Below, piece after piece: positions 1 through 61,033 of a stretch of DNA of 64,000 nucleotides. The position numbers were made by a program, and so were the translations under genes. The stretch comes from Escherichia coli O157:H7 (lineage in GTDB: Bacteria; Pseudomonadota; Gammaproteobacteria; Enterobacterales; Enterobacteriaceae): the NCBI RefSeq assembly GCF_013167455.1, contig NZ_CP038328.1, one strand, 5' to 3'. The number at the start of each line of letters is the position of its first letter. Within the stretch, counting starts at the first letter, position 1. The notes below the pieces were generated by a model, which did no database searches, had not been told where the DNA came from, and saw nothing but the letters and a program-made list of their open reading frames with translations.

Positions 1-1723
1 GACCTTCTCCCGCTAATTTCTCCGCCGCTTGCAGGGTGATTTCCATCTCTGAACCGGTGGCAATCAAAATAATATCTGGCTTACCGCCGCTGTCTTTCAG
101 CACATAACCGCCACGAGCAATCTCTTTAACCTGATCCGGCGTACGTTCCACCTGGGCCAGATTCTGCCTGGAGAGAATCAGTGCCGTCGGTCCGTTGTGG
201 CGCTCAACCGCCAGCTTCCAGCCCACCGCCGCTTCCACCTGATCGCACGGTCGCCAGGTGCTGAAATTTGGCGTTAAGCGCAGGCTGGCCAGTTGCTCAA
301 CAGCCTGGTGCGTCGGACCATCTTCGCCCAGACCAATTGAGTCGTGGGTATAAACCATAATCTGCCGCGCTTTCATCAGTGCCGCCATCCGCGCGGCGTT
401 ACGGGCGTATTCAACAAACATCAGGAACGTTGCGGTATACGGCACAAAGCCGCCGTGGTGCGCAATGCCGTTGGCGATAGCGGTCATGCCAAATTCACGC
501 ACCCCGTAGTGAATGTAGTTGCCCGCCGGATCTTCCTTCAGCGAAACAGAACCTTTCCAGATGGTCAGGTTGCTGGGAGCCAGATCCGCCGAACCGCCGA
601 GCAGCTCCGGTAGCATCGGCCCGTAAGCGTTAAGCGTATTTTGCGAAGCCTTACGGGTAGCGATTTTCGCCGGATTCGCCTGCAACTCATTGATATATTT
701 CTGAGTCGTTTTCTCCCAGTCCTTCGGTAAACCACCGCTCATCCGACGGGTAAACTCTTCTGCCAGTTGCGGATGAGCCTTTTTATAGGCGGCAAACTTC
801 TCATTCCAGCTCTGCTGCGCTTTTTCGCCTTTTTCGCGGGCATCCCAAGCGTGATAAATATCTTTAGGGATCTCAAATGGCGGATGGTGCCAGCCCAGTT
901 TTTGCCGTGCCAGCGCCACTTCTTCTTCCCCCAGCGGTGCGCCGTGCGCCTCTTCCTTACCTGCTTTATTCGGCGAACCAAAGCCAATCACCGTACGGCA
1001 GATAATCAGCGACGGCTTATCTTTCACGCTTTGCGCTTCAAGGATTGCTTCCTTCACCGCCTGCGGATCGTGACCGTCGATTTCATGGATCACATGCCAG
1101 TGATAGGCTTCAAAACGTTTTGCCGTATCGTCGGTAAACCAGCCTTCGGTTTCTCCATCAATCGAAATACCGTTGTGATCGTAAAAACCAATCAGCTTGC
1201 CCAGTCCCAGCGTGCCCGCCAGCGAACAGACTTCGTGGGAAATACCTTCCATCAGGCAGCCGTCGCCCATAAACACATAGGTGAAGTGATCGACAATTTC
1301 ATGATCCGGCTGGTTAAACTGCGCCGCCAGTGTACGTTCCGCTATCGCCAGCCCGACGGCGTTCGCCAAACCTTGTCCAAGAGGACCGGTGGTGGTTTCA
1401 ACTCCGGGCGTATAGCCGATTTCCGGGTGGCCAGGGGTTTTCGAATGCAGTTGACGAAAGTTCTTCAGCTCTTCCAGCGGCAGGTCGTAACCGGTCAGAT
1501 GCAGCAAACTGTAGAGCAGCATCGACGCGTGACCGTTGGAAAGAATAAAGCGGTCGCGATCATACCAGGTTGGGTCGGTAGGGTTATGTTTAAGAAAATC
1601 GTTCCACAGCACTTCGGCAATATCAGCCATGCCCATCGGCGCGCCGGGATGACCAGAATTGGCTTTTTGTACCGCATCCATACTGAGTGCGCGAATCGCA
1701 TTGGCAAGGTCTTTTCGGGACAT
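1..1723 (-). CDS. tktB: transketolase 2, partial (N-terminal ~574 codons; 3' end lies before window start)
   Basis: Reverse-complement from 1723 translates [11 protein letters not shown]..., the typical transketolase N-terminus; open to position 1 so absent from ORF track; directly downstream of talA as in talA-tktB operon. The 400-aa + strand ORF 767..1969 is its shadow. Confidence 0.88.
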
Positions 1724-1742
1724 ATAACACTCCGTGGCTGGT

Positions 1743-2693
1743 TTATAGTTTGGCGGCAAGAAGATCTTCCAGTTTGCGTTGATCAACGGCGAACAGACGA
1801 ATGCCTTCAGACAGTTTTTCTACCGCCATCGCATCCTGATTGTGCTCCCAACGGAACTCCGCTTCGCTCATGGGAGCTGGGCGTGGGAACGTCTGAGAAG
1901 GTGGGATTAATTTACGTACCACTGGCGAAACTTTTTCCTGCAGCTCCTTCAGCAAATTCGGTGCGATAGTCAGTCGATCGCAGCCGGTTAAGGCGAGGAT
2001 TTGTTCGGTGCGACGGAAGCTCGCGCCCATCACAATGGTTTCATAGTGGTGTTGCTTATAGTAGTCGTAGATATTGCGCACCGATTTAACGCCCGGATCT
2101 TCTTCCACCACATATGGGTCCATCGGCTTGCGTGCCTGATACCAGTCATAAATACGCCCGACAAACGGCGAAATCAGAAAAACGCCCGCTTCTGCACAGG
2201 CCCGCGCCTGTGCAAAAGAAAACAGCAGCGTCAGGTTGCAGTTAATACCTTCTTTTTCCAGCTCTTCTGCCGCGCGAATTCCTTCCCAGGTCGAAGCCAG
2301 TTTGATCAGAATGCGTGATTTCTCAACGCCTTGTTGCTGATACAAGTCCACCAGATGGCGCGCCTTCTCAATACTCTTTTCTTTATCAAAAGAGAGGCGT
2401 GCATCAACTTCTGTTGACACGCGACCGGGTACGATTTTGAGGATTTCAGCACCGAAATTGACCGCCAGTTTGTCACACGCTGCGACCACCTGTTGTTCCT
2501 GGGTCTTGCCATTTTTTTTACCCCAGGCGATAGCATCGTCTATTAAATGCTCATATTGTGATAATCCGGCAGCCTTGAGTAACAGCGAAGGATTGGTGGT
2601 GGCATCCTGGGGATGATAATGGCGAATGGACTCAATATCGCCGCTGTCTGCCACGACAGTGGTGAACTGTTTGATGCCGTCTAACTCGTTCAT
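1743..2693 (-). CDS. talA: transaldolase A
   Basis: 316-aa [26 protein letters not shown]..., transaldolase family; 19 bp upstream of tktB on same strand. Confidence 0.93.
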
Positions 2694-2981
2694 AGGAAAT
2701 ACTCCTTGAAAAGTAAAGTGTTAGATGAGTGCGTTAATTCACACTTCTGAGAAATTTCGCTAAACGCATCAAAAAAGCATAGCAGACAGGCATGGTATTG
2801 CTGGATTAAGCAGGTAACATCAGTGTTATAGGATTATTACCAAAACATTATATTAATGGTGAGAGTTTGGACTTGCTCAAAGTCTGTAGACTCCGGCAAG
2901 GTAATAATGTGCGCCACGTTGTGGGCAGGGGCTGTTGCCCACACACTTTATTTGTGAACGTTACGTGAAAGGAACAACCAA

Positions 2982-5261
2982 ATGGATGACCAGTTAAAAC
3001 AAAGTGCACTTGATTTCCATGAATTTCCAGTTCCAGGGAAAATCCAGGTTTCTCCAACCAAGCCTCTGGCAACGCAGCGCGATCTGGCGCTGGCCTACTC
3101 ACCAGGCGTTGCCGCACCTTGTCTTGAAATCGAAAAAGACCCGTTAAAAGCCTACAAATATACCGCGCGCGGTAACCTGGTGGCGGTGATCTCTAACGGT
3201 ACGGCGGTGCTGGGGTTAGGCAACATTGGCGCGCTGGCAGGCAAACCGGTGATGGAAGGCAAGGGCGTTCTGTTTAAGAAATTCGCTGGGATTGATGTAT
3301 TTGACATTGAAGTTGATGAACTCGACCCGGACAAATTTATTGAAGTCGTCGCTGCGCTCGAACCGACCTTCGGCGGCATCAACCTCGAAGACATTAAAGC
3401 GCCAGAATGTTTCTATATTGAACAGAAACTGCGCGAGCGGATGAATATTCCGGTATTCCACGACGATCAGCACGGCACGGCAATTATCAGCACTGCCGCC
3501 ATCCTCAACGGCTTGCGCGTGGTGGAGAAAAACATCTCTGACGTGCGTATGGTGGTTTCCGGCGCGGGTGCTGCAGCAATCGCCTGTATGAACCTGCTGG
3601 TAGCGTTGGGTCTGCAAAAACATAACATCGTGGTTTGCGATTCAAAAGGCGTTATCTATCAGGGCCGTGAGCCAAACATGGCGGAAACCAAAGCCGCATA
3701 TGCGGTAGTGGATGACGGCAAACGTACCCTCGATGATGTGATTGAAGGCGCAGATATTTTCCTCGGCTGTTCCGGCCCGAAAGTGCTGACCCAGGAAATG
3801 GTGAAGAAAATGGCTCGAGCGCCAATGATCCTGGCGCTGGCGAACCCGGAACCGGAAATTCTGCCGCCGCTGGCGAAAGAAGTGCGTCCGGATGCCATCA
3901 TCTGTACCGGCCGTTCCGACTACCCGAACCAGGTGAACAACGTCCTTTGCTTCCCGTTCATCTTCCGTGGCGCGCTGGACGTTGGCGCAACCGCCATCAA
4001 CGAAGAGATGAAACTGGCGGCGGTACGCGCGATTGCAGAACTGGCCCATGCGGAACAGAGTGAAGTGGTGGCTTCAGCGTATGGCGATCAGGATCTGAGC
4101 TTTGGCCCTGAATACATCATTCCAAAACCGTTTGATCCGCGTCTGATAGTCAAGATTGCTCCTGCGGTCGCGAAAGCGGCGATGGAGTCGGGCGTGGCGA
4201 CGCGTCCGATTGCTGATTTCGACGTCTACATCGACAAGCTGACTGAGTTCGTTTACAAAACCAACCTGTTTATGAAGCCGATTTTCTCCCAGGCTCGCAA
4301 AGCGCCGAAGCGCGTAGTTCTGCCGGAAGGGGAAGAGGCGCGCGTTCTGCATGCCACTCAGGAACTGGTAACGCTGGGACTGGCGAAACCGATCCTTATC
4401 GGTCGTCCGAACGTGATCGAAATGCGCATTCAGAAACTGGGCTTGCAGATCAAAGCGGGCGTTGATTTTGAGATCGTCAATAACGAATCCGATCCGCGCT
4501 TTAAAGAGTACTGGACCGAATACTTCCAGATCATGAAGCGTCGCGGCGTCACTCAGGAACAGGCGCAGCGGGCGCTGATCAGTAACCCGACAGTGATCGG
4601 CGCGATCATGGTTCAGCGTGGCGAAGCCGATGCAATGATTTGCGGTACGGTGGGTGATTATCATGAACATTTTAGCGTGGTGAAAAATGTCTTTGGTTAT
4701 CGCGATGGCGTTCACACCGCAGGTGCAATGAACGCGCTGCTGCTGCCGAGTGGTAACACCTTTATTGCCGATACCTACGTCAATGACGAACCAGACGCAG
4801 AAGAGCTGGCGGAGATCACCTTGATGGCGGCAGAAACTGTCCGTCGTTTCGGTATTGAACCGCGCGTTGCTCTGTTGTCGCACTCCAACTTTGGTTCTTC
4901 TGACTGCCCGTCGTCGAGCAAAATGCGTCAGGCGCTGGAACTGGTCAGGGAACGTGCGCCAGAACTGATGATTGATGGTGAAATGCACGGCGATGCAGCG
5001 CTGGTGGAAGCGATTCGCAACGACCGTATGCCGGACAGCCCTTTGAAAGGTTCTGCCAATATTCTGGTGATGCCGAACATGGAAGCTGCCCGCATTAGTT
5101 ACAACTTACTGCGCGTTTCCAGCTCGGAAGGTGTGACTGTCGGTCCGGTGCTGATGGGCGTGGCGAAACCGGTTCACGTGTTAACGCCGATCGCATCGGT
5201 GCGTCGTATCGTCAACATGGTGGCGCTGGCCGTGGTTGAAGCGCAAACCCAACCGCTGTAA
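2982..5261 (+). CDS. maeB: NADP-dependent malic enzyme (malic enzyme domain fused to phosphotransacetylase-like domain)
   Basis: 759-aa [26 protein letters not shown]...; length and sequence match MaeB as recalled. Confidence 0.95.
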
Positions 5262-5553
5262 TTCTTTTTTAACTCTCACGCTTACCCTGAATATTCAGGG
5301 TAAGCGGTTTAGCTGCAATATATTAGTAAAGCTTATTACTGAGTTTGCGAATAATAAAAAAAGCAGTATATAAAATATCTCGATATTATTTTATTTATAT
5401 TCATGCGTCGCATATGAAAGTTTATTCATAACAGTAAATATCTCTCCATTCTTAGTGATCTACCTCACCTTTTAAACGCGCTTGCCGAATTTTGTTATTT
5501 ACTCTGACGAAAAATTGTCACGATACACGAAAGTTTTTCACAGGCGGCGACTC

Positions 5554-5901: not shown

Positions 5902-6381
5902 ATGAAACGAATTGCGTTTGTGGGTACCGTCGGGGCAGGGAAAACAACGTTATTTAATGCGTTGCAGGGGAATTATACCCTCGCCAGAAAAACACAGGCC
6001 GTGGAATTTAATGATAAGGGCGATATTGATACGCCGGGTGAATATTTTAGCCATCCCCGCTGGTATCACGCCTTAATTACCACGCTACAGGATGTGGACA
6101 TGCTGATCTATGTCCACGGCGCGAATGACCCGGAAAGTCGGTTGCCTGCCGGGTTGCTGGATATTGGCGTCAGCAAACGGCAAATCGCCGTCATCAGTAA
6201 AACGGACATGCCGGATGCTGACGTCGCCGCAACGCGAAAGTTATTGCTTGAGACGGGCTTCGAGGAGCCGATTTTCGAGCTAAACAGCCACGACCCGCAA
6301 AGCGTGCAGCAACTGGTGGATTATCTGGCATCTCTCACCAAACAGGAGGAAGCAGGTGAAAAAACTCATCACAGCGAATGA
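5902..6381 (+). CDS. eutP: EutP, P-loop GTPase/acetate-kinase-like eut protein
   Basis: 159-aa ORF with Walker A GTVGAGKTT; operon position. Confidence 0.9.
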   Translation: MKRIAFVGTVGAGKTTLFNALQGNYTLARKTQAVEFNDKGDIDTPGEYFSHPRWYHALITTLQDVDMLIYVHGANDPESRLPAGLLDIGVSKRQIAVISKTDMPDADVAATRKLLLETGFEEPIFELNSHDPQSVQQLVDYLASLTKQEEAGEKTHHSE

Positions 6382-7057
6382 TATTCGTGAAGCACACGCG
6401 CGCGGCGAACAGGCAATGTCCGTGGTTCTGCGCGCCAGCATTATTACCCCGGAAGCCCGTGAAGTGGCGGATCTACTGGGTTTTACCATCACCGAATGTG
6501 ATGAATTGATCCCGGTAACGGCGTCCGTGCCCGCCAGCGTGCCAGCCGATAAAACCGAAAGCCAGCGCATCCGCGAAACCATTATCGCCCAGCTACCGGA
6601 AGGCCAGTTTACCGAAAGCCTGGTCGCGCAGCTGATGGAAAAAGTGATGAAGGAAAAACAGTCGCTGGAGCAGGGTGCAATGCAGCCGAGCTTCAAATCG
6701 GTGACCGGCAAAGGCGGCATCAAAGTGATTGATGGTAGCAGCGTCAAGTTTGGTCGCTTTGATGGCGCACAACCGCATTGCGTGGGCTTGACTGATCTTG
6801 TGACCGGAGACGACGGCAGCAGCATGGCCGCCGGTTTTATGCAGTGGGAGAACGCATTCTTCCCGTGGACCCTGAACTACGACGAAATCGACATGGTGCT
6901 GGAAGGGGAGCTCCATGTTCGCCACGAAGGCGAAACCATGATCGCTAAAGCAGGCGACGTGATGTTTATCCCGAAAGGCTCCAGCATCGAATTTGGTACG
7001 ACATCCAGCGTGAAATTCCTGTATGTCGCCTGGCCGGCTAACTGGCAATCCCTATGA
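6356..7057 (+). CDS. eutQ: EutQ, cupin-domain eut protein
   Basis: 233-aa ORF, GTG start overlapping eutP 3' end by 26 nt. Confidence 0.88.
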   Translation: MKKLITANDIREAHARGEQAMSVVLRASIITPEAREVADLLGFTITECDELIPVTASVPASVPADKTESQRIRETIIAQLPEGQFTESLVAQLMEKVMKEKQSLEQGAMQPSFKSVTGKGGIKVIDGSSVKFGRFDGAQPHCVGLTDLVTGDDGSSMAAGFMQWENAFFPWTLNYDEIDMVLEGELHVRHEGETMIAKAGDVMFIPKGSSIEFGTTSSVKFLYVAWPANWQSL

Positions 7058-7785
7058 AAGATTTCATCACCGAAGCATGGCTAAGAGCGAACCATACGCT
7101 CAGCGAAGGCGCAGAGATCCATCTCCCTGCGGACAGTCGCCTGACGCCCTCTGCCCGGGAGTTGCTGGAAAGCCGCCATCTGCGCATCAAGTTTATTGAC
7201 GAGCAGGGCCGCCTGTTTGTTGACGATGAACAGCAGCAGCCGCAGCCCGTTCATGGGCTAACCAGTAGCGATGAACATCCGCAGGCGTGCTGCGAACTGT
7301 GCCGCCAGCCGGTGGCAAAAAAGCCGGATACGCTGACTCACCTGTCGGCGGAAAAAATGGTCGCCAAAAGCGATCCGCGTCTGGGTTTTCGCGCAGTTCT
7401 CGACAGCACCATTGCGCTGGCAGTGTGGCTGCAAATTGAACTGGCGGAACCGCTGGGCTGCCAGGCGATTGTCGGGCTTTCTGACGAAGATCTGCACCGG
7501 CTTTCTCATCAGCCGTTGCGTTATCTTGGTCACGATCATCTGGTGCCGGAAGCAAGCCACGGGCGCGATGCGGCGTTGCTGAATCTGCTACGCACCAAAG
7601 TGCGGGAAGCCGAAACCGTAGCGGCGCAGGTGTTTATCACCCGCAGTTTTGAAGTATTACGCCCGGACATCTTGCAGGCGCTGAACCGCCTTTCCAGCAC
7701 GGTCTACGTGATGATGATCCTGAGCGTAACGAAGCAGCCGCTAACGGTGAAGCAGATCCAACAACGACTGGGGGAAACGCAATGA
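7054..7785 (+). CDS. eutT: EutT, ethanolamine corrinoid adenosyltransferase
   Basis: 243-aa [17 protein letters not shown]..., Cys-rich HPQACCELC motif; ATGA overlap with eutQ stop. True start not verified. Confidence 0.85.
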
Positions 7786-8798
7786 TTATTGAACGTTGTT
7801 GTGAACTGGCGTTGCGAGCGCCCGCCAGAGTGGTTTTTCCGGATGCGTTAGATCAACGTGTGCTGAAAGCTGCGCAATATTTACATCAACAAGGTCTGGC
7901 AACGCCCATTCTGGTCGCCAATCCGTTTGAACTTCGTCAGTTTGCGCTCAGTCACGGCGTGGCGATGGACGGGCTACAGGTGATAGATCCGCATGGCAAC
8001 CTCGCAATGCGGGAAGAATTTGCTCATCGCTGGCTGGCCCGCGCGGGCGAAAAAACGCCGCCGGATGCGCTGGAAAAACTTACCGATCCGCTGATGTTCG
8101 CCGCCGCAATGGTCAGCGCCGGTAAAGCGGATGTCTGTATCGCGGGCAACCTCTCTTCCACGGCGAATGTGCTGCGTGCCGGATTACGCATTATCGGCTT
8201 GCAGCCAGGCTGTAAAACGCTCTCATCCATTTTCCTGATGCTGCCACAGTACAGCGGTCCGGCGTTGGGCTTTGCCGATTGCAGCGTGGTACCACAGCCG
8301 ACGGCGGCGCAGCTGGCGGATATCGCGCTTGCCAGCGCCGAAACCTGGCGCGCCATCACCGGAGAAGAGCCGCGCGTGGCGATGCTGTCGTTTTCCAGTA
8401 ACGGTAGCGCCCGTCACCCCTGCGTTGCCAATGTCCAGCAGGCGACAGAAATCGTCCGTGAGCGCGCACCAAAGCTGGTAGTCGATGGCGAGTTGCAGTT
8501 TGACGCCGCCTTCGTGCCGGAAGTGGCGGCGCAAAAAGCGCCTGCCAGCCCGCTACAGGGCAAGGCCAATGTGATGGTTTTTCCGTCGCTGGAAGCCGGA
8601 AATATTGGCTACAAAATCGCACAACGACTCGGCGGATATCGTGCCGTCGGGCCATTGATACAAGGACTTGCCGCGCCGATGCACGATCTCTCTCGTGGTT
8701 GTAGTGTGCAGGAAATTATCGAGCTGGCGCTGGTGGCAGCTGTGCCGCGTCAGACAGAAGTGAACCGCGAAAGCAGTTTACAAACACTGGTTGAATGA
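7782..8798 (+). CDS. eutD: EutD phosphotransacetylase
   Basis: 338-aa PTA-family ORF; start overlaps eutT stop (ATGA). Confidence 0.9.
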
Positions 8799-8836
8799 AC
8801 GGTCCCGTTCTGGACCCTGATAAAGAGGAAAGCACA

Positions 8837-9130
8837 ATGGAAGCATTAGGAATGATCGAAACCCGGGGCCTGGTTGCACTGATTGAGGCTTCTGACGCGA
8901 TGGTGAAAGCTGCGCGCGTCAAGCTGGTTGGTGTTAAGCAGATTGGCGGCGGCCTGTGTACTGCCATGGTTCGTGGTGATGTTGCAGCCTGTAAAGCGGC
9001 GACCGATGCCGGTGCCGCAGCGGCACAGCGTATCGGCGAGCTGGTATCTGTACACGTTATCCCGCGTCCGCACGGCGACCTGGAAGAAGTGTTCCCGATC
9101 GGCCTGAAAGGCGATAGCAGCAACCTGTAA
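8837..9130 (+). CDS. eutM: EutM, major BMC shell protein
   Basis: 97-aa product [26 protein letters not shown]... (canonical BMC-H domain); SD AAGAGGA upstream of ATG 8837. Confidence 0.92.
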
Positions 9131-9236
9131 TCACCCTGTGTGACGTCGATTCGGGCGTCACGCTCTCTCATTTTTCATTTTACCTTCCGCGGAGGGTAGG
9201 GGGAGCTTTTACCTGAAATACGCCACGGAGGCGGGT

Positions 9237-9524
9237 ATGAAACTGGCAGTCGTCACTGGACAAATTGTTTGTACCGTACGCCATCACGGACTGGCGCATG
9301 ACAAATTGCTGATGGTGGAAATGATTGATCCACATGGTAATCCTGACGGGCAATGTGCCGTCGCCATCGACAATATTGGCGCGGGAACCGGGGAGTGGGT
9401 GTTGCTGGTGAGTGGCAGTTCCGCCCGCCAGGCGCATAAAAGCGAAACGTCACCGGTCGATCTGTGCGTGATTGGCATCGTCGATGAGGTGGTGTCTGGC
9501 GGTCAGGTAATTTTCCACAAATAA
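9237..9524 (+). CDS. eutN: EutN, BMC vertex (pentamer) protein
   Basis: 95-aa ORF MKLAVVTGQIVCTVRHHGL..., EutN/CcmL family. Confidence 0.9.
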   Translation: MKLAVVTGQIVCTVRHHGLAHDKLLMVEMIDPHGNPDGQCAVAIDNIGAGTGEWVLLVSGSSARQAHKSETSPVDLCVIGIVDEVVSGGQVIFHK

Positions 9525-9535
9525 GGCAGAACATC

Positions 9536-10939
9536 ATGAATCAACAGGATATTGAACAGGTGGTGAAAGCGGTACTGCTGAAAATGCAAAGCAGTGACAC
9601 GCCGCCCGCCGCCGTTCATGAGATGGGCGTTTTCGCGTCCCTGGATGACGCTGTTGCGGCAGCCAAAATTGCCCAGCAAGGGTTAAAGAGCGTGGCAATG
9701 CGCCAGTTAGCCATTGCTGCCATTCGTGAAGCAGGCGAAAAACACGCCAGAGATTTAGCGGAACTTGCCGTCAGTGAAACCGGCATGGGTCGCGTTGAAG
9801 ATAAATTTGCCAAAAACGTCGCTCAGGCACGCGGCACGCCAGGCGTTGAGTGTCTCTCTCCGCAAGTGCTGACGGGCGACAACGGCCTGACTTTAATTGA
9901 AAACGCGCCCTGGGGCGTGGTGGCTTCGGTGACGCCGTCCACTAACCCGGCGGCAACCGTAATTAATAACGCCATCAGCCTGATTGCCGCGGGCAACAGC
10001 GTCATTTTTGCCCCGCATCCGGCGGCGAAAAAAGTCTCCCAGCGGGCGATCACGCTGCTCAACCAGGCGATTGTTGCCGCAGGCGGGCCGGAAAACTTAC
10101 TGGTTACTGTGGCAAATCCGGATATCGAAACCGCGCAACGCTTGTTCAAGTTTCCGGGTATCGGCCTGCTGGTGGTGACCGGCGGCGAAGCGGTAGTAGA
10201 AGCGGCGCGTAAACACACCAATAAACGTCTGATTGCCGCAGGCGCTGGCAACCCGCCGGTAGTGGTGGATGAAACCGCTGACCTCGCCCGTGCTGCTCAG
10301 TCCATCGTCAAAGGCGCGTCTTTCGATAACAACATCATTTGTGCCGACGAAAAGGTACTGATTGTTGTTGATAGCGTAGCCGATGAACTGATGCGTCTGA
10401 TGGAAGGCCAGCACGCGGTGAAACTGACCGCAGAACAGGCGCAGCAGCTGCAACCGGTGTTGCTGAAAAATATCGACGAGCGCGGAAAAGGCACCGTCAG
10501 CCGTGACTGGGTTGGTCGCGACGCAGGCAAAATCGCGGCGGCAATCGGCCTTAAAGTTCCGCAAGAAACGCGCCTGCTGTTTGTGGAAACCACCGCAGAA
10601 CATCCGTTTGCCGTGACTGAACTGATGATGCCGGTGTTGCCCGTCGTGCGCGTCGCCAACGTGGCGGATGCCATTGCGCTAGCGGTGAAACTGGAAGGCG
10701 GTTGCCACCACACGGCGGCAATGCACTCGCGCAACATCGAAAACATGAACCAGATGGCGAATGCTATTGATACCAGCATTTTCGTTAAGAACGGACCGTG
10801 CATTGCCGGGCTGGGGCTGGGCGGGGAAGGCTGGACCACCATGACCATCACCACGCCAACCGGTGAAGGGGTGACCAGCGCGCGTACGTTTGTCCGTCTG
10901 CGTCGCTGTGTATTAGTCGATGCGTTTCGCATTGTTTAA
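9536..10939 (+). CDS. eutE: EutE, CoA-acylating acetaldehyde dehydrogenase
   Basis: 467-aa aldehyde dehydrogenase-family ORF. Confidence 0.92.
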   Translation: MNQQDIEQVVKAVLLKMQSSDTPPAAVHEMGVFASLDDAVAAAKIAQQGLKSVAMRQLAIAAIREAGEKHARDLAELAVSETGMGRVEDKFAKNVAQARGTPGVECLSPQVLTGDNGLTLIENAPWGVVASVTPSTNPAATVINNAISLIAAGNSVIFAPHPAAKKVSQRAITLLNQAIVAAGGPENLLVTVANPDIETAQRLFKFPGIGLLVVTGGEAVVEAARKHTNKRLIAAGAGNPPVVVDETADLARAAQSIVKGASFDNNIICADEKVLIVVDSVADELMRLMEGQHAVKLTAEQAQQLQPVLLKNIDERGKGTVSRDWVGRDAGKIAAAIGLKVPQETRLLFVETTAEHPFAVTELMMPVLPVVRVANVADAIALAVKLEGGCHHTAAMHSRNIENMNQMANAIDTSIFVKNGPCIAGLGLGGEGWTTMTITTPTGEGVTSARTFVRLRRCVLVDAFRIV

Positions 10940-10949
10940 GGAGTAACAG

Positions 10950-11786
10950 ATGGCGCACGACGAACAATGGCTCACCCCACGTCTGCAAACGGCGGCAACG
11001 CTGTGTAACCAGACGCCCGCCGCGACGGAATCTCCGCTGTGGCTGGGAGTGGATCTGGGCACCTGCGATGTGGTGTCGATGGTTGTCGACCGCGACGGTC
11101 AGCCAGTGGCGGTATGCCTCGACTGGGCCGATGTGGTTCGCGACGGCATCGTCTGGGATTTCTTCGGCGCGGTCACCATTGTTCGTCGCCATCTCGACAC
11201 GCTCGAGCAGCAATTCGGTCGTCGTTTTAGCCATGCGGCGACTTCATTTCCTCCAGGTACGGACCCGCGTATTTCCATCAACGTGCTGGAGTCTGCCGGG
11301 CTGGAAGTGAGCCATGTGCTGGATGAGCCAACCGCAGTCGCGGATCTGCTGCAACTGGACAACGCCGGTGTAGTGGATATCGGCGGTGGCACTACCGGCA
11401 TTGCCATCGTGAAAAAGGGCAAAGTGACGTACTCGGCGGATGAAGCCACCGGCGGACATCACATCTCTCTGACTTTCGCCGGAAATCGCCGTATTTCGCT
11501 GGAAGAGGCGGAGCAGTACAAGCGCGGTCACGGTGAAGAGATTTGGCCTACGGTGAAACCGGTGTACGAAAAAATGGCGGACATTGTCGCCCGGCATATT
11601 GAAGGGCAGGGCATTACTGATTTATGGCTGGCGGGCGGCTCCTGTATGCAACCGGGCGTGGCAGAACTGTTTCGCAAACAATTCCCGGCGTTACAGGTGC
11701 ATTTACCGCAGCACAGTTTGTTTATGACCCCGCTGGCGATCGCCAGTAGTGGGCGAGAGAAAGCGGAGGGGCTATATGCAAAATGA
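10950..11786 (+). CDS. eutJ: EutJ, Hsp70/actin-fold chaperone-like protein
   Basis: 278-aa ORF with DLGTCDV and DIGGGTTGIAIV ATPase-fold motifs. Confidence 0.9.
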   Translation: MAHDEQWLTPRLQTAATLCNQTPAATESPLWLGVDLGTCDVVSMVVDRDGQPVAVCLDWADVVRDGIVWDFFGAVTIVRRHLDTLEQQFGRRFSHAATSFPPGTDPRISINVLESAGLEVSHVLDEPTAVADLLQLDNAGVVDIGGGTTGIAIVKKGKVTYSADEATGGHHISLTFAGNRRISLEEAEQYKRGHGEEIWPTVKPVYEKMADIVARHIEGQGITDLWLAGGSCMQPGVAELFRKQFPALQVHLPQHSLFMTPLAIASSGREKAEGLYAK

Positions 11787-39711: not shown

Positions 39712-40683
39712 TTACTGTTGCAATTCTTTCTCAGTGAAGAGATCGGCAAACAATGCGGTGCTTAAATAACGCTCACCCGATGACGGTAGAATAACCACAA
39801 TATTCTTGTTGGTAAAGCTTTCATCTTCTTGTAGTTTCAACGCCGCAGCAACAGCTGCTCCAGAAGAGATACCTGCAAGAATACCTTCTTCTTCCATCAG
39901 ACGACGCGCGGTAGAAATCGCTTCTTCATTGGTGATGCCAATGACTTTATCGACCAGCTTGAGATCGAGGTTAGCCGGGATAAAACCAGCGCCAATACCC
40001 TGAATTTTATGCGGGCCAGGTTTAATCTCTTCACCTGCCAGCGCCTGGGCGATAACTGGAGAATCGGTTGGCTCAACGGCGACAGAGATAAGATCGGTCT
40101 TACCTTTGGTGCCTTTAATGTAGCGGCTGACGCCAGTCAGCGTACCGCCAGTCCCAACGCCAGCAATAAATACATCAACCTGACCGTCGGTATCTTCCCA
40201 GATCTCCGGACCGGTGGTCTTTTCGTGAATTTCAGGGTTTGCCGGATTGCTGAATTGTTGCAGCAGCAGGTATTTCTCTGGATTGCTGGCGACAATTTCT
40301 TCTGCTTTTTGGATTGCGCCTTTCATGCCTTTAGCACCTTCGGTCAGCACCAGGTTTGCACCTAACGCTTTCAGCAGCTTGCGGCGTTCAATACTCATGG
40401 TTTCTGGCATGGTCAGGGTGAGTTTGTAACCGCGAGCGGCAGCTACATAGGCCAGTGCAATCCCGGTATTACCGCTGGTTGGTTCAACCAGTTCAACGCC
40501 TGGTTTCAGCACGCCGCGCTTTTCGGCATCCCAAATCATGTTGGCACCGATACGGCACTTAACGCTGAAGCTGGGGTTACGAGATTCCACCTTCGCCAGA
40601 ATGCGTCCGTTACCGATGCGATTCAGGCGAACCAGCGGCGTGTGACCGATAGTCAGCGAGTTATCTTCAAAAATCTTACTCAT
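39712..40683 (-). CDS. cysK: cysteine synthase A
   Basis: 323-aa [47 protein letters not shown]... Confidence 0.97.
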
Positions 40684-57622: not shown

Positions 57623-57892
57623 ATTTGCTCCAAATATGAGGCAGGTTAAATTTCCGTGCACATTCTATGTAACATGGTTAAGGAAAACGAGATCTGACAC
57701 ACACTATAATGACGTCCTGTGACAAGCTTCAAAAATAGTGAGCTGTCATACATTTCTGCTATGTTGTGTATGGAAGCTGAAAGTTATGTAAATGTGCTAA
57801 CATTAAACATAACCATAACATTCAAGTCATCAATCTTTTCGTAGTCATAATCCTGGTCTATCAGAGAAATCACCACAACCCATTTAAATGAA

Positions 57893-57944
57893 TTTGATAA
57901 TCATTCTCGTTTGGCATAGCATGAAACATAGCAAAGGCTATGTT
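57893..57944 (+). promoter_or_regulatory. mntH control region: Fur-box-like site (about 57893-57908) and MntR operator inverted repeat (about 57923-57944)
   Basis: TGATAATCATTCTC resembles Fur box; AAACATAGC-AAAG-GCTATGTTT is a perfect 9-bp inverted repeat matching the MntR box as recalled from the mntH literature. Confidence 0.7.
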
Positions 57945-57948
57945 TTAG

Positions 57949-59196
<1,248 letters not shown>

Positions 59197-59227
59197 TTGA
59201 ATGAGCGTCGCATCTGGCACTATTGGC

Positions 59228-59312
59228 GATGCGGCGTAAACGCCTTATCCGCCCTACGCGTTAAAGAGCCGGTTTGTAGGCCTGATAAGACGCACTAGCG
59301 TCGCATCAGGCC
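59228..59312. repeat. REP (repetitive extragenic palindromic) elements, two units, between mntH and ypeC
   Basis: GATGCGGCGTAAACGCCTTATCCGCCCTAC and GTAGGCCTGATAAGACGCACTAGCGTCGCATCAGGCC, typical REP palindromes. Confidence 0.8.
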
Positions 59313-59335
59313 TTGTGCTCCATTGGCGAATGTGT

Positions 59336-59662
59336 TTAATGGCGGTGTCCATGTCCGCGGCCTTTTCCGCGATGATCGTCACGATCGCGCCAGCCTTCAC
59401 GATAGCCACGCTCATATGCTTTACGCTTATCCCAGCCACGATGGTAGCCATTATCATGACGCCACCAGCGGTTTTTACGCCATTCATAATTGCGATGCCA
59501 GTAGTCACGGTCGCGCCAGTGACCACCGTCCCAGTAATTACCGTAATGATCGCGATCGCCAATTTGTAATTTGATTGATGGCAGTAGGGTGATTTCGCCT
59601 GCGTTTGCTGCAAGCGGGGTAAATGCCATCAGGGCGGCCGCCAGAAACAGTGACCTGAACAT
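59336..59662 (-). CDS. ypeC: periplasmic DUF2502-family protein YpeC (signal peptide; W/R/H/D-rich repeats; His-rich C-terminus)
   Basis: 108-aa [24 protein letters not shown]... ending [12 protein letters not shown]. Confidence 0.8.
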
Positions 59663-59776
59663 TGTTATTCTCCTTCACGATCGAAGCCGTCAGCGGCCTG
59701 TTAACGCAATATTACGGGGAGGTAAAGCCCCGTATCATCGCCATAACTCTTAAATCATAAAGGAGAGCATTTTTTG

Positions 59777-61033
59777 CTAAACGTTATCGTGGGGTGGCTG
59801 TTGCTTCGGACGATTGACCATCATCATCGGCTTACCTGCTAATAACAGCCATGCCGGAAGCATGACGATACAGAGCAGCGGTAGCAATGTGGTATTGGGT
59901 ACAACGACTGCCGCCATAAAAAGACTTAACCAGCCATCGCGTGTTACCACCAGCACGATGCCGAGAATAGCGCAGGAAACGGTTATTGCCGCTGGTACGG
60001 CGGGAACGTGCTCATGCAGCATCAACCCTAATGCCACGCCGACAAACACTGCCGGGAAGATTCGCCCACCGCGAAAGCCACTGGCGGCAGCAACGACCAG
60101 GGCGGCAAGTTTAATTACCGCCAGCAAAAAGTAATCGCTGGTGCTGAAAGCCTGATTTGCCACCATCTGCTGCATCTCATCCAGCCCTTTAAACAGCGAA
60201 ACTGGTCCACCAATAACCCCCAGAATACCGAGAATAAATCCGCCAATACCCAGCACGAGCACCGGATTTTTCATTTGATGCATCATCGCGTGCAACCGTG
60301 GTAAGCACCATACGGCGACCATCCCTGCTGCGATGGCAATCGCCGCGACAATTGCACCGCTGAGAATATCGGTCATTTCCATCTGTCCGTAATGCGCAAT
60401 GGGCAGTGAAAAATGGGGATGGAAAAATAATCCGGTAGTAAGTGCACCAGCTGCTGCCGCCATTAACGGCGCAAAAAGACGATCCCATAGCGGAACTTCA
60501 CTACTGCCATTTAAGGTTTGCGAAAATATCAACGCCGCCGCAACAGGTGTACCAAACAGCGCGCCGATGGTTCCGGCAGAGGCTAAAATAGTCCACTCCA
60601 TTCGGTTGACGCGCGGTAACAGACGAGCGCCAATGGCAACCGCAAGGGCGATATTGACGGTCATGATCGGATGTTCCGGCCCCAGGCTGACGCCGCCAGC
60701 AAGACCGAGAATTAATGCTACGATAAGTCCTGGTAGCGCAGAGGGCGGAACCGGTGCGCCGATCAGCGGTTCACAGGCGGGGTCTGGTCCGGCATGACCC
60801 TGGCTGAAACGGATAACCAACCCCACCGCAATACCCGTTAGCGTTAATACACCGATGATCCAGAGGGGTGAATCCTGGGCTATCCCCAGAGTTCCCGGCA
60901 GTCGTTGCCAGAGCAAATTCTGTAATACCGAGGCGATTTTCATCACCACAATCAGAATAAGACTGGACGCAATCCCAATTGCCACGGCGGGGAGCGATAA
61001 TAACAACATGGTTCTGGCTCGCGGATGGAGCAT
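59777..61033 (-). CDS. yfeO: ClC-family ion channel/transporter homolog
   Basis: 418-aa polytopic membrane ORF. Confidence 0.85.

What the first reader, a model, noticed from the sequence alone, without database searches (positions are those of the whole stretch)
59336..59662. YpeC: secreted low-complexity W/R/H/D-rich protein with His-rich tail next to the Mn transporter mntH
The mature protein is dominated by repeats such as [32 protein letters not shown] and ends [12 protein letters not shown]. Location directly downstream (convergent) of mntH and the His-rich C-terminus suggest periplasmic metal binding; function is uncharacterised to my knowledge.
Basis: inference. Interest (0 to 1): 0.3.

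Follow-up and report, generated by a model that had tools for sequence, protein, structure and literature searches.

The report
YpeC: envelope-stress periplasmic protein, unknown function
This is the already annotated E. coli gene ypeC, a small secreted protein of unknown function. It has a compact tryptophan-rich core and a histidine/arginine-rich floppy tail, and it is switched on by cell-envelope and antibiotic stress regulators, not by the manganese regulators of its neighbour mntH.

Summary
Window 59336-59662 (-) encodes a 108-aa protein identical to UniProt YPEC_ECOLI (Pfam DUF2502, E=3e-24). It has a Sec signal peptide, a W/R/H/D/Y/G-rich mature part and a His-rich end, and lies convergent to mntH. 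It is under strong purifying selection (dN/dS 0.04-0.10). "Repeats" overstates it: the bias is compositional and there are no tandem repeats. Residues ~23-70 are a conserved, confidently predicted mini-domain; only residues ~71-108 look disordered.

The Mn/mntH link is not supported. mntH carries a perfect MntR palindrome and a Fur-like box; the ypeC promoter has neither. Instead it has a conserved marbox that published work shows binds MarA and SoxS. Published transcriptomes show strong Rcs dependence: 42-60x induction on LolCDE inhibition and -24x in an rcsB-disrupted O157 strain. The paralog YaaX and a Serratia homolog are also Rcs-induced. The mntH adjacency is old (Enterobacteriaceae, Yersiniaceae, Erwiniaceae) but lies inside a larger syntenic block, is interrupted in some genomes, and is absent for paralogs and betaproteobacterial members.

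His-rich tails are a family-wide compositional trait (mean 17% His), so binding of Zn/Ni/Cu-type metals or pH-dependent charging remains plausible but untested. The gene is known, its function is open, and interest is modest.

The parts
59336..59662 (-). ypeC coding sequence (108 codons plus stop)
   Evidence: ORF list and translation. Identical to YPEC_ECOLI. Pfam DUF2502 E=3e-24. dN/dS 0.04-0.10.
59600..59662 (-). Sec signal peptide, residues 1-21, with predicted cleavage at ANA|GE
   Evidence: Read directly from the sequence: R3, a hydrophobic core (mean KD +1.9) and A at -3 and -1. A19 and A21 are invariant in 20 orthologs. There is no lipobox and no twin-arginine motif. Cleavage has not been shown experimentally.
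59453..59599 (-). DUF2502 core, residues ~22-70: two short beta-hairpins and one helix, with the signature P-x-[IV]-x-L-x-I-G-D-R-D-x-x-G-x-Y-W-D-G-x-x-W-R-D-x-x-W
59339..59452 (-). C-terminal tail, residues ~71-108: predicted disordered, R/G/H/D/W/Y-rich, with an ortholog-conserved [14 protein letters not shown] motif and a terminal GHGHRH
   Evidence: pLDDT 39-54. A82-D96 is nearly invariant within Enterobacteriaceae, while the (G/H)n end varies in length. Tails across the family cannot be aligned but average 17% His, 22% K+R and 15% D+E.
59670..59674 (-). Shine-Dalgarno sequence AGGAG, 7 nt upstream of the ATG
   Evidence: Read from the sequence. The block CGATCGTGAAGGAGA is conserved in ~75 orthologous loci.
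59767..59781 (+). Marbox GCATTTTTTGCTAAA (MarA/SoxS site), 105-119 nt upstream of the ypeC ATG, overlapping the yfeO stop codon
   Evidence: This exact 15-mer is reported as the MarA ChIP-seq site for ypeC, and the fragment binds purified MarA at 0.3 uM (PMC5684230). The same 15-mer is the SoxS ChIP-seq site in Salmonella (PMC10268841). A strict marbox pattern matches at about -106 to -120 in 53 of 75 orthologous upstream regions, and several of the rest (Citrobacter) carry a close variant, TTATTAACAAAAAGTGC.
59709..59754 (-). Conserved core-promoter block: TTTAAGAGTT (59745-59754), a GGGG...CCCC hairpin (59714-59733) and a candidate -10 TAATAT (59709-59714)
   Evidence: Conserved across genera even though the upstream gene differs. 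The assignment as -10 element and activator half-site (TAAGA/TAGGA) is inference. The consensus scan found no sigma-70 promoter, and the published RcsB box TN(G/A)GAN4TC(T/C)NA has no match with 1 mismatch or fewer here.
59204..59313 (.). REP/BIME-type palindromes in the 139-bp gap between the 3' ends of mntH and ypeC
   Evidence: Sub-threshold naRNA4 (REP-derived) Rfam hits. A 16-nt inverted repeat at 59278-59293 / 59298-59313. No intrinsic-terminator consensus.
57958..59196 (+). mntH (Nramp Mn2+/H+ symporter), the convergent neighbour, with its own MntR box (57924-57945) and Fur-like box (57890-57908) upstream
   Evidence: ORF and annotation. Motif scan.

Best explanation
The feature is ypeC, one of two E. 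coli DUF2502 genes (the other is yaaX). It encodes a Sec-exported, most likely periplasmic, protein of ~11 kDa. The protein has a ~45-residue Trp/Asp/Gly-rich folded core and a cationic, disordered tail rich in His, Arg and Gly.

Its expression is driven by cell-envelope stress through the Rcs phosphorelay and by the MarA/SoxS antibiotic and oxidative-stress activators, through a conserved marbox. The Mn/Fe regulators MntR and Fur, which control the convergent neighbour mntH, do not appear to be involved.

The most likely role (inference) is as an effector of the envelope-stress response that acts in the periplasm. The conserved aromatic/acidic core would bind a fixed envelope ligand or partner. 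The polycationic tail, whose charge rises from about +8 at pH 7 to about +17 at pH 5 and whose His residues could also take up Zn/Ni/Cu, would hold it on anionic envelope material or on unfolded proteins.

Shown: identity, export signal, domain architecture, purifying selection, the marbox and its conservation, and the absence of MntR/Fur motifs. Taken from the literature: Rcs dependence and MarA/SoxS binding. Inferred: location, ligand and mechanism. The position next to mntH is inherited synteny, not a functional coupling.
For: Identity and reality:
-.

Architecture:
- Conserved core and variable tails.
- AlphaFold2 confidence is high for residues 31-70 and low for 71-108.

Regulation of ypeC:
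- 42-60x induction with canonical Rcs genes on LolCDE inhibition (PMC5105897).
- -23.7x (p=1.9e-17) in an rcsB-disrupted O157:H7 strain, the same lineage as this window (PMC5343319).
- MarA ChIP-seq plus in-vitro binding (PMC5684230), and SoxS ChIP-seq in Salmonella and E. coli (PMC10268841).
- The marbox is at 59767-59781 and conserved across genera.

The family shares the regulation:
- YaaX is in the RcsB regulon and is induced by colicin M and by the LolCDE inhibitor (PMC2731931, PMC3599342, PMC5105897).
- The promoter of a Serratia DUF2502 gene rises several log10 in an Rcs-hyperactive mutant, and this requires rcsB (PMC8470065).

No Mn/Fe input:
- MntR and Fur motifs are upstream of mntH only.

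Gene context of other members:
- Paralogs and distant members sit in unrelated neighbourhoods.
- In one gammaproteobacterial MAG the gene follows three lipoprotein genes.

Charge versus pH.
Against: There is no direct functional, localisation or binding data for YpeC or any DUF2502 protein in the papers I could read.

The published RcsB homodimer box is absent from the promoter. Rcs control may therefore be indirect or work through a degenerate site.

The ypeC-mntH adjacency persists even where the proteins have diverged to 36-44% identity, so a weak functional link cannot be excluded.

The family-wide His enrichment fits a metal-centred function at least as well as an electrostatic one.

The fold prediction is a model of a very small domain.
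Confidence: 0.55

Rival explanations
1. YpeC is a periplasmic transition-metal buffer or metallochaperone. The His-rich tail, possibly with the conserved Asp residues of the core, binds Zn2+, Ni2+, Cu2+ or Co2+ released or imported during envelope and oxidative stress. This role would be independent of MntH.
For: His enrichment is maintained across the family although tails cannot be aligned: mean 17%, up to 40%, often as HGHGH or HDHD runs. The YaaX tail is 33% His. The conserved D36/D38/D45 in GDRDxxGxYWDG could form a cation site (inference). One distant member lies ~3 kb from a bufferin-type (BufA1/MbnB/HvfC/DoxX) cluster with an ECF sigma factor. SoxS and MarA respond to redox and antibiotic stress, which disturbs metal homeostasis (general knowledge).
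Against: There is no metal-responsive regulator site upstream, and no metal-stress induction was found in the accessible literature. Betaproteobacterial members with CPPGQAKKGxC ends have only 5-13% His. The bufferin neighbourhood is a single case. Nothing has been tested biochemically.
Confidence: 0.25
2. YpeC is a pH-switched, intrinsically disordered periplasmic holdase. This would be analogous to the acid-shock protein Asr or to Spy/CpxP/ZraP-type stress chaperones. Protonation of His in the tail at low pH would activate binding to unfolding envelope proteins.
For: The calculated charge rises from +7.6 at pH 7 to +17 at pH 5. The tail is predicted disordered. ypeC is modestly induced by rapid acidification (log2 1.3; PMC2270276). 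It is co-induced with spy and cpxP-type genes in envelope stress. The properties of Asr are recalled from my own knowledge and were not checked here.
Against: There is no sequence relationship to Spy, CpxP, ZraP or Asr: only DUF2502 hits at E<=1. The most conserved part of the family is the folded core, not the tail, which argues for a specific ligand. Acid induction is small compared with Rcs induction.
Confidence: 0.12
3. One reading: YpeC is a periplasmic Mn-binding accessory of the MntH importer, functionally coupled to it through their adjacency.
For: The convergent ypeC><mntH arrangement is conserved in 70 or more Enterobacteriaceae species. It also holds in Yersiniaceae (Chimaeribacter, Nissabacter) and in Pantoea, despite 36-44% protein identity. 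The tail is His-rich.
Against: The promoters are separate, and the MntR/Fur boxes are upstream of mntH only. ypeC is controlled by Rcs, MarA and SoxS. The flanking genes glk, gpr and nupC are conserved equally well, so the adjacency carries no specific information. Insertions between the two genes are tolerated. YaaX and other paralogs, and the betaproteobacterial members, are not next to an Nramp gene. His-rich peptides bind Mn2+ poorly (Irving-Williams series, established chemistry).
Confidence: 0.05

Closest known systems
YaaX (b0005), the E. coli DUF2502 paralog
   Same: Same family. The two are 62% identical over residues 2-66, covering the signal peptide and the core. YaaX also has a His-rich, unalignable tail, is also Rcs-induced (PMC2731931, PMC3599342, PMC5105897) and is also uncharacterised.
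   Different: A different locus, thrC-yaaX-yaaA. Its tail is Pro/His-rich and lacks the [10 protein letters not shown] motif. No marbox or MarA/SoxS binding is reported for it in the tables I read.
Spy / CpxP / ZraP periplasmic stress proteins
   Same: Small, exported, strongly induced by envelope stress and co-induced with ypeC. ZraP uses His-rich segments and Zn (own knowledge).
   Different: No sequence similarity: only DUF2502 hits in Pfam at E<=1. Those proteins are all-helical hairpins, whereas the YpeC core is predicted as beta-hairpins plus one helix.
Asr, the acid-shock periplasmic disordered protein (own knowledge)
   Same: Small, exported, highly basic, His/Lys-rich and largely disordered. 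Both are stress-induced.
   Different: No homology. Asr is PhoBR/RstAB- and acid-controlled, whereas YpeC is under Rcs, MarA and SoxS. YpeC has a conserved folded core.
RcnB (YohN), periplasmic Ni/Co homeostasis protein encoded next to the rcnA efflux gene
   Same: A small periplasmic protein next to a metal transporter gene.
   Different: rcnB is co-regulated with rcnA (own knowledge). ypeC is convergent to mntH and regulated separately. There is no Pfam RcnB hit.
His-rich metal-binding tails (HypB, SlyD, Hpn-type) and Trp/Arg-rich cationic peptides (indolicidin or lactoferricin type)
   Same: Compositional resemblance: (G/H)n runs, and a W+R content of 28% in the mature protein.
   Different: These are resemblances of composition only. 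There is no homology and no tested activity.

Membership tests
Pfam DUF2502 (PF10697) | Match to the family HMM above the gathering score | tested here: met
   85.4 bits against a cut-off of 27, E=3.1e-24, profile positions 1-90 of 90. Ten distant relatives also match only this family.
Pfam DUF2502 (PF10697) | N-terminal signal peptide followed by the conserved core P-G-[IV]-x-L-x-I-G-D-R-D-x-x-G-x-Y-W-D-G-x-x-W-R-D-x-x-W-W | tested here: met
   All invariant and near-invariant positions are present in YpeC.
Rcs regulon (RcsB-activated genes) | Expression depends on RcsB and rises when Rcs is activated | not testable with these tools
   From the literature only: 42-60x up with the LolCDE inhibitor (PMC5105897) and -23.7x in an rcsB-disrupted O157 strain (PMC5343319).
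Rcs regulon (RcsB-activated genes) | RcsB box TN(G/A)GAN4TC(T/C)NA in the promoter (PMC7913699) | tested here: not met
   No match with 1 mismatch or fewer in 59663-59800. Only a conserved TAAGA/TAGGA half-site is present. Direct control by RcsB is therefore unproven.
MarA/SoxS/Rob regulon | A marbox upstream that is bound by the activators | tested here: met
   GCATTTTTTGCTAAA at 59767-59781 is the exact published site. It is conserved in orthologous promoters.
MntR / Fur (Mn/Fe) regulon, shared with mntH | An MntR palindrome AAACATAGC-N4-GCTATGTTT or a Fur box in the promoter | tested here: not met
   mntH upstream scores 18/18 (MntR) and 15/19 (Fur). ypeC upstream scores at best 11/18 and 12/19. 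The consensus sequences were recalled from memory; the MntR one is validated by its perfect hit at mntH.
Spy/CpxP/ZraP, RcnB, Asr, WXXGXW-repeat families | Match to the respective Pfam models | tested here: not met
   No Pfam family other than DUF2502 at E<=1. No NCBIfam hit. No PADLOC hit.
Any solved protein fold | Sequence or structure match to a PDB chain | tested here: not met

The most novel reading that the evidence does not exclude
DUF2502 may be a previously unrecognised small fold that serves as a conserved output module of the Rcs envelope-stress response. On this reading, a Trp/Asp-rich mini-domain recognises a specific envelope component such as a glycan (peptidoglycan, OPG, LPS core or capsule precursor). 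It is fused to a fast-evolving poly-His/Arg disordered tail that acts as a pH- or metal-gated electrostatic anchor. YpeC and YaaX together would then reinforce or repair the damaged envelope.
Probability: 0.2. Interest if true: 0.5.

Novelty: already known. Interest (0 to 1): 0.22.

Why it matters
YpeC is among the most strongly induced genes when the Rcs system fires, and it is a high-affinity MarA/SoxS target. No function is known for it or for any other DUF2502 protein. Finding its ligand would fill a gap in how enterobacteria respond to outer-membrane, lipoprotein-trafficking and antibiotic stress. Its promoter and those of its relatives are already used as Rcs reporters. For the scan itself, the lesson is that the proposed manganese link rests on inherited gene order and is not backed by regulation. 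The finding is an ordinary, annotated y-gene, not a new system.

Tried and rejected
- **Tandem or internal repeats.** TRF found none, and only WRDRD occurs twice (p~0.05). I rejected "repeat protein" in favour of compositional bias.
- **Spurious ORF or alternative frames.** Rejected by dN/dS of 0.04-0.10. Many database relatives with T/A/I/V-rich tails are frameshifted reads of the same gene.
- **Sigma-70 promoter and intrinsic terminator scans.** No hits.
- **RcsAB and RcsB box searches.** No convincing site.
- **Rfam.** Only sub-threshold REP-derived naRNA4 hits.
- **Structured RNA in the leader or promoter.** RNAalifold gave only a 3-bp consensus helix with weak covariation. Not pursued.
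- **NCBIfam and PADLOC.** No hits.
- **Literature by locus tags.** b2390 and STM/Z/JW/UniProt identifiers returned nothing useful. A substring search for "ypec" returned polypectomy papers.
- **Gene-neighbourhood inference across paralogs.** No recurrent metal-transport partner.
- **EF-hand or DxDxDG reading of GDRDxxG.** The spacing does not fit the canonical motifs. I could not inspect model coordinates, so this remains a bare idea.

Full report
**What is there**

The window is E. coli, 100% identical to several O157 chromosomes over this stretch. Coordinates 59336-59662 on the minus strand hold a 108-codon ORF preceded by AGGAG seven bases upstream. Its product is identical to UniProt YPEC_ECOLI, 'Uncharacterized protein YpeC'. 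K-12 annotates it as b2390, 'DUF2502 domain-containing protein YpeC'. The locus is found in 5425 of 5426 complete E. coli genomes. Pfam DUF2502 matches over its whole length, at 85.4 bits and E=3e-24. NCBIfam and PADLOC have nothing.

The first 21 residues are a textbook Sec signal peptide ending ANA|GE, with A19 and A21 invariant in orthologs.

The mature 87 residues are 18% R, 15% G, 11.5% D, 10% H, 9% W and 8% Y. W is 7-fold and H 4.4-fold above the long ORFs of the same window. The calculated pI is about 10 and GRAVY is -2.1.

Pairwise dN/dS against Escherichia, Citrobacter, Salmonella, Leclercia, Klebsiella, Kosakonia and Franconibacter orthologs is 0.04-0.10, at dS of 0.5-1.7. This is a real, constrained gene, and the overlapping alternative-frame ORFs are not.

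**Corrections to the observation**

There is no tandem repeat at the DNA level. The only repeated peptide of five or more residues is WRDRD, which occurs twice. Composition-preserving shuffles produce such a repeat 5% of the time. The protein is compositionally biased, not repetitive.

It is also not uniformly low-complexity. I aligned 46 family members, drawn from a search of 1.84 billion representatives that returned only 116 hits. The alignment shows a conserved core, P-G-[IV]-x-L-x-I-G-D-R-D-x-x-G-x-Y-W-D-G-x-x-W-R-D-x-x-W-W. G35, G41 and W44 are invariant.

AlphaFold2 predicts this core, residues ~23-70, as two short beta-hairpins and a helix. pLDDT is 86-93 in the full-length model and averages 85.5 when the core is modelled alone. 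Residues 71-108 fall to pLDDT 39-54.

The core has no relative among solved structures:
- by profile search against PDB sequences;
- by Foldseek.

The AFDB library was unavailable.

**The tail**

Within Enterobacteriaceae the tail keeps an [14 protein letters not shown] motif and ends in a (G/H)n run of variable length. Across the wider family the tails cannot be aligned, but their composition holds: mean 17% His, 22% K+R, 15% D+E and 14% G.

The E. coli paralog YaaX is 62% identical over the signal peptide and core. It has an unrelated tail with 10 His in 30 residues.

His richness is therefore a selected property of the family.

**The mntH neighbourhood**

mntH (57958-59196, +) and ypeC are convergent. 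They are 139 bp apart, with REP-type palindromes in between.

In 80 species-level genomes the order glk-(yfeO and/or ipdC-gpr)-ypeC><mntH-nupC is nearly universal. It persists in Yersiniaceae (Chimaeribacter, Nissabacter) and in Pantoea, where the DUF2502 protein is only 36-44% identical. The adjacency is old, but so is that of every gene in the block.

It is not obligatory. Several Citrobacter carry a 5-kb PfkB-kinase and sugar-ABC-transporter insert between the two genes, and Pantoea has a methyltransferase gene there.

Other family members live elsewhere:
- yaaX lies between thrC and yaaA;
- another paralog lies between ihfA and btuC;
- betaproteobacterial and unclassified gammaproteobacterial members lie next to DUF1684/FliL genes, or after three lipoprotein genes near a bufferin cluster.

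**Regulation**

The mntH promoter carries a perfect MntR palindrome (57924-57945) and a 15/19 Fur-like box. The ypeC upstream region reaches only 11/18 and 12/19.

The ypeC upstream region instead contains GCATTTTTTGCTAAA at 59767-59781. This is exactly the site reported for MarA by ChIP-seq, with in-vitro binding at the lowest MarA concentration tested (PMC5684230). It is also the SoxS site in Salmonella and E. coli (PMC10268841).

The marbox and about 130 bp of promoter and leader are conserved across Enterobacteriaceae, even though the upstream gene differs between genera.

Published transcriptomes place ypeC among the strongest Rcs-dependent genes:
- 42-60-fold induction by a LolCDE inhibitor, alongside osmB, bdm, the wca genes, ypfG and spy (PMC5105897);
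- a 23.7-fold drop in an rcsB-disrupted O157:H7 strain (PMC5343319).

YaaX is in the RcsB regulon (PMC2731931, PMC3599342). A Serratia DUF2502 promoter serves as an Rcs reporter (PMC8470065). Smaller responses are reported to rapid acidification, to conjugation and, for an unspecified E. coli DUF2502 gene, to cold soil.

I found no canonical RcsB box (TN(G/A)GAN4TC(T/C)NA, PMC7913699) within one mismatch in the promoter, so direct RcsB control is unproven.

**Interpretation**

The best-supported statement is that YpeC is an exported effector of the envelope-stress (Rcs) and Mar/Sox responses. It has a specific, conserved binding core and a polycationic, His-rich disordered tail.

What it binds is unknown. 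I favour an envelope ligand or unfolded envelope proteins, with the tail providing pH- or metal-tunable electrostatic attachment. The calculated charge is +7.6 at pH 7 and +17 at pH 5.

The main rival is a genuine metal-buffering role for Zn, Ni or Cu. A Mn-specific partnership with MntH is the least likely reading. The two genes share no regulatory motif, paralogs lack the context, and His-rich peptides are poor Mn2+ ligands (Irving-Williams series; established chemistry, not tested here).

**Novelty and score**

The gene, its family and its regulation are already in databases and papers; only the function is open. Its specific hypothesis draws on a non-informative neighbourhood. Interest is modest.

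The most novel reading still allowed is a new small fold acting as a conserved Rcs output module with a switchable His/Arg tail. I give it about 0.2 probability.

Noticed in passing
window 57888-57977 (+): A 29-codon ORF ([29 protein letters not shown]) overlaps the MntR/Fur boxes and the first 20 nt of mntH. K-12 annotates the equivalent as the small protein YpeD (b4819).
   Followed up: partly
window 59204-59254 and 59278-59313: REP/BIME-type palindromes fill the gap between the convergent 3' ends of mntH and ypeC (sub-threshold naRNA4 hits and a 16-nt inverted repeat). No intrinsic terminator consensus was found for either gene.
   Followed up: partly
window 59663-59790; loci L002-L080 upstream of the match: About 130 bp upstream of ypeC is conserved across Enterobacteriaceae although the upstream gene differs (yfeO in Escherichia, gpr/ipdC elsewhere). 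The conserved blocks are the marbox, TTTAGGAGTT, a GGGGCTTTACCGCCCC hairpin overlapping the likely -35/-10 spacer, TAATAT, a GGCC...GGCC leader hairpin and CGATCGTGAAGGAGA. In E. coli the marbox overlaps the yfeO stop codon. RNAalifold gave only weak covariation support.
   Followed up: partly
L008, L010, L013, L016, L076 (Citrobacter), about 6300-11500: A ~5-kb insert between ypeC and mntH encodes a DeoR-PfkB kinase fusion, a periplasmic sugar-binding protein, an ABC ATPase and a permease.
   Followed up: yes
proteins P0141, P0150, P0166, P0169, P0170, P0173, P0182, P0185, P0187; P0166, P0184, P0185, P0199, P0205, P0208, P0212, P0213, P0217: Some DUF2502 relatives carry the GDRDxxGxYWDGxxWRD core twice in tandem. 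A subset ends in a Cys-flanked CPPGQAKKG(N/R)C motif instead of a His-rich end. The named members of that subset are from Azonexus, Rhodocyclaceae and Jeongeupia (Betaproteobacteria) and from an unclassified gammaproteobacterial MAG.
   Followed up: partly
L085 about 170-5375: In a gammaproteobacterial MAG the DUF2502 gene follows three unannotated lipoprotein genes (lipoboxes LAGC, AGGC, LSGC). It lies ~3 kb from a divergent ECF-sigma/anti-sigma plus BufA1-MbnB-HvfC-DoxX (bufferin-type) cluster.
   Followed up: partly
L001 and L054: Likely contamination in public assemblies. A 398-bp 'Rhizobium wenxiniae' contig is 100% E. coli ypeC. A 'Chryseobacterium sp. 18061' contig carries the enterobacterial glk-yfeO-ypeC-mntH-nupC block.
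   Followed up: no
proteins P0122, P0123, P0128, P0138, P0203 and others: Many database 'relatives' are frameshifted translations of ypeC. Their T/A/I/V-rich C-termini correspond to the alternative reading frame of the W/R/H-rich region, which is the same frame as the 119-aa minus-strand ORF at window 59254-59613.
   Followed up: partly
window 40089-40102 (inside cysK): The only exact match in the window to the published RcsB box (TAAGATCGGTCTTA) lies inside cysK. The number of matches in the window is below the shuffled expectation, so it is not significant on its own.
   Followed up: partly
protein P0254 (Pantoea stewartii): One UniRef entry names a 116-aa DUF2502 protein 'Zinc ABC transporter substrate-binding protein'. 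This is probably an annotation artefact caused by the His-rich composition.
   Followed up: no
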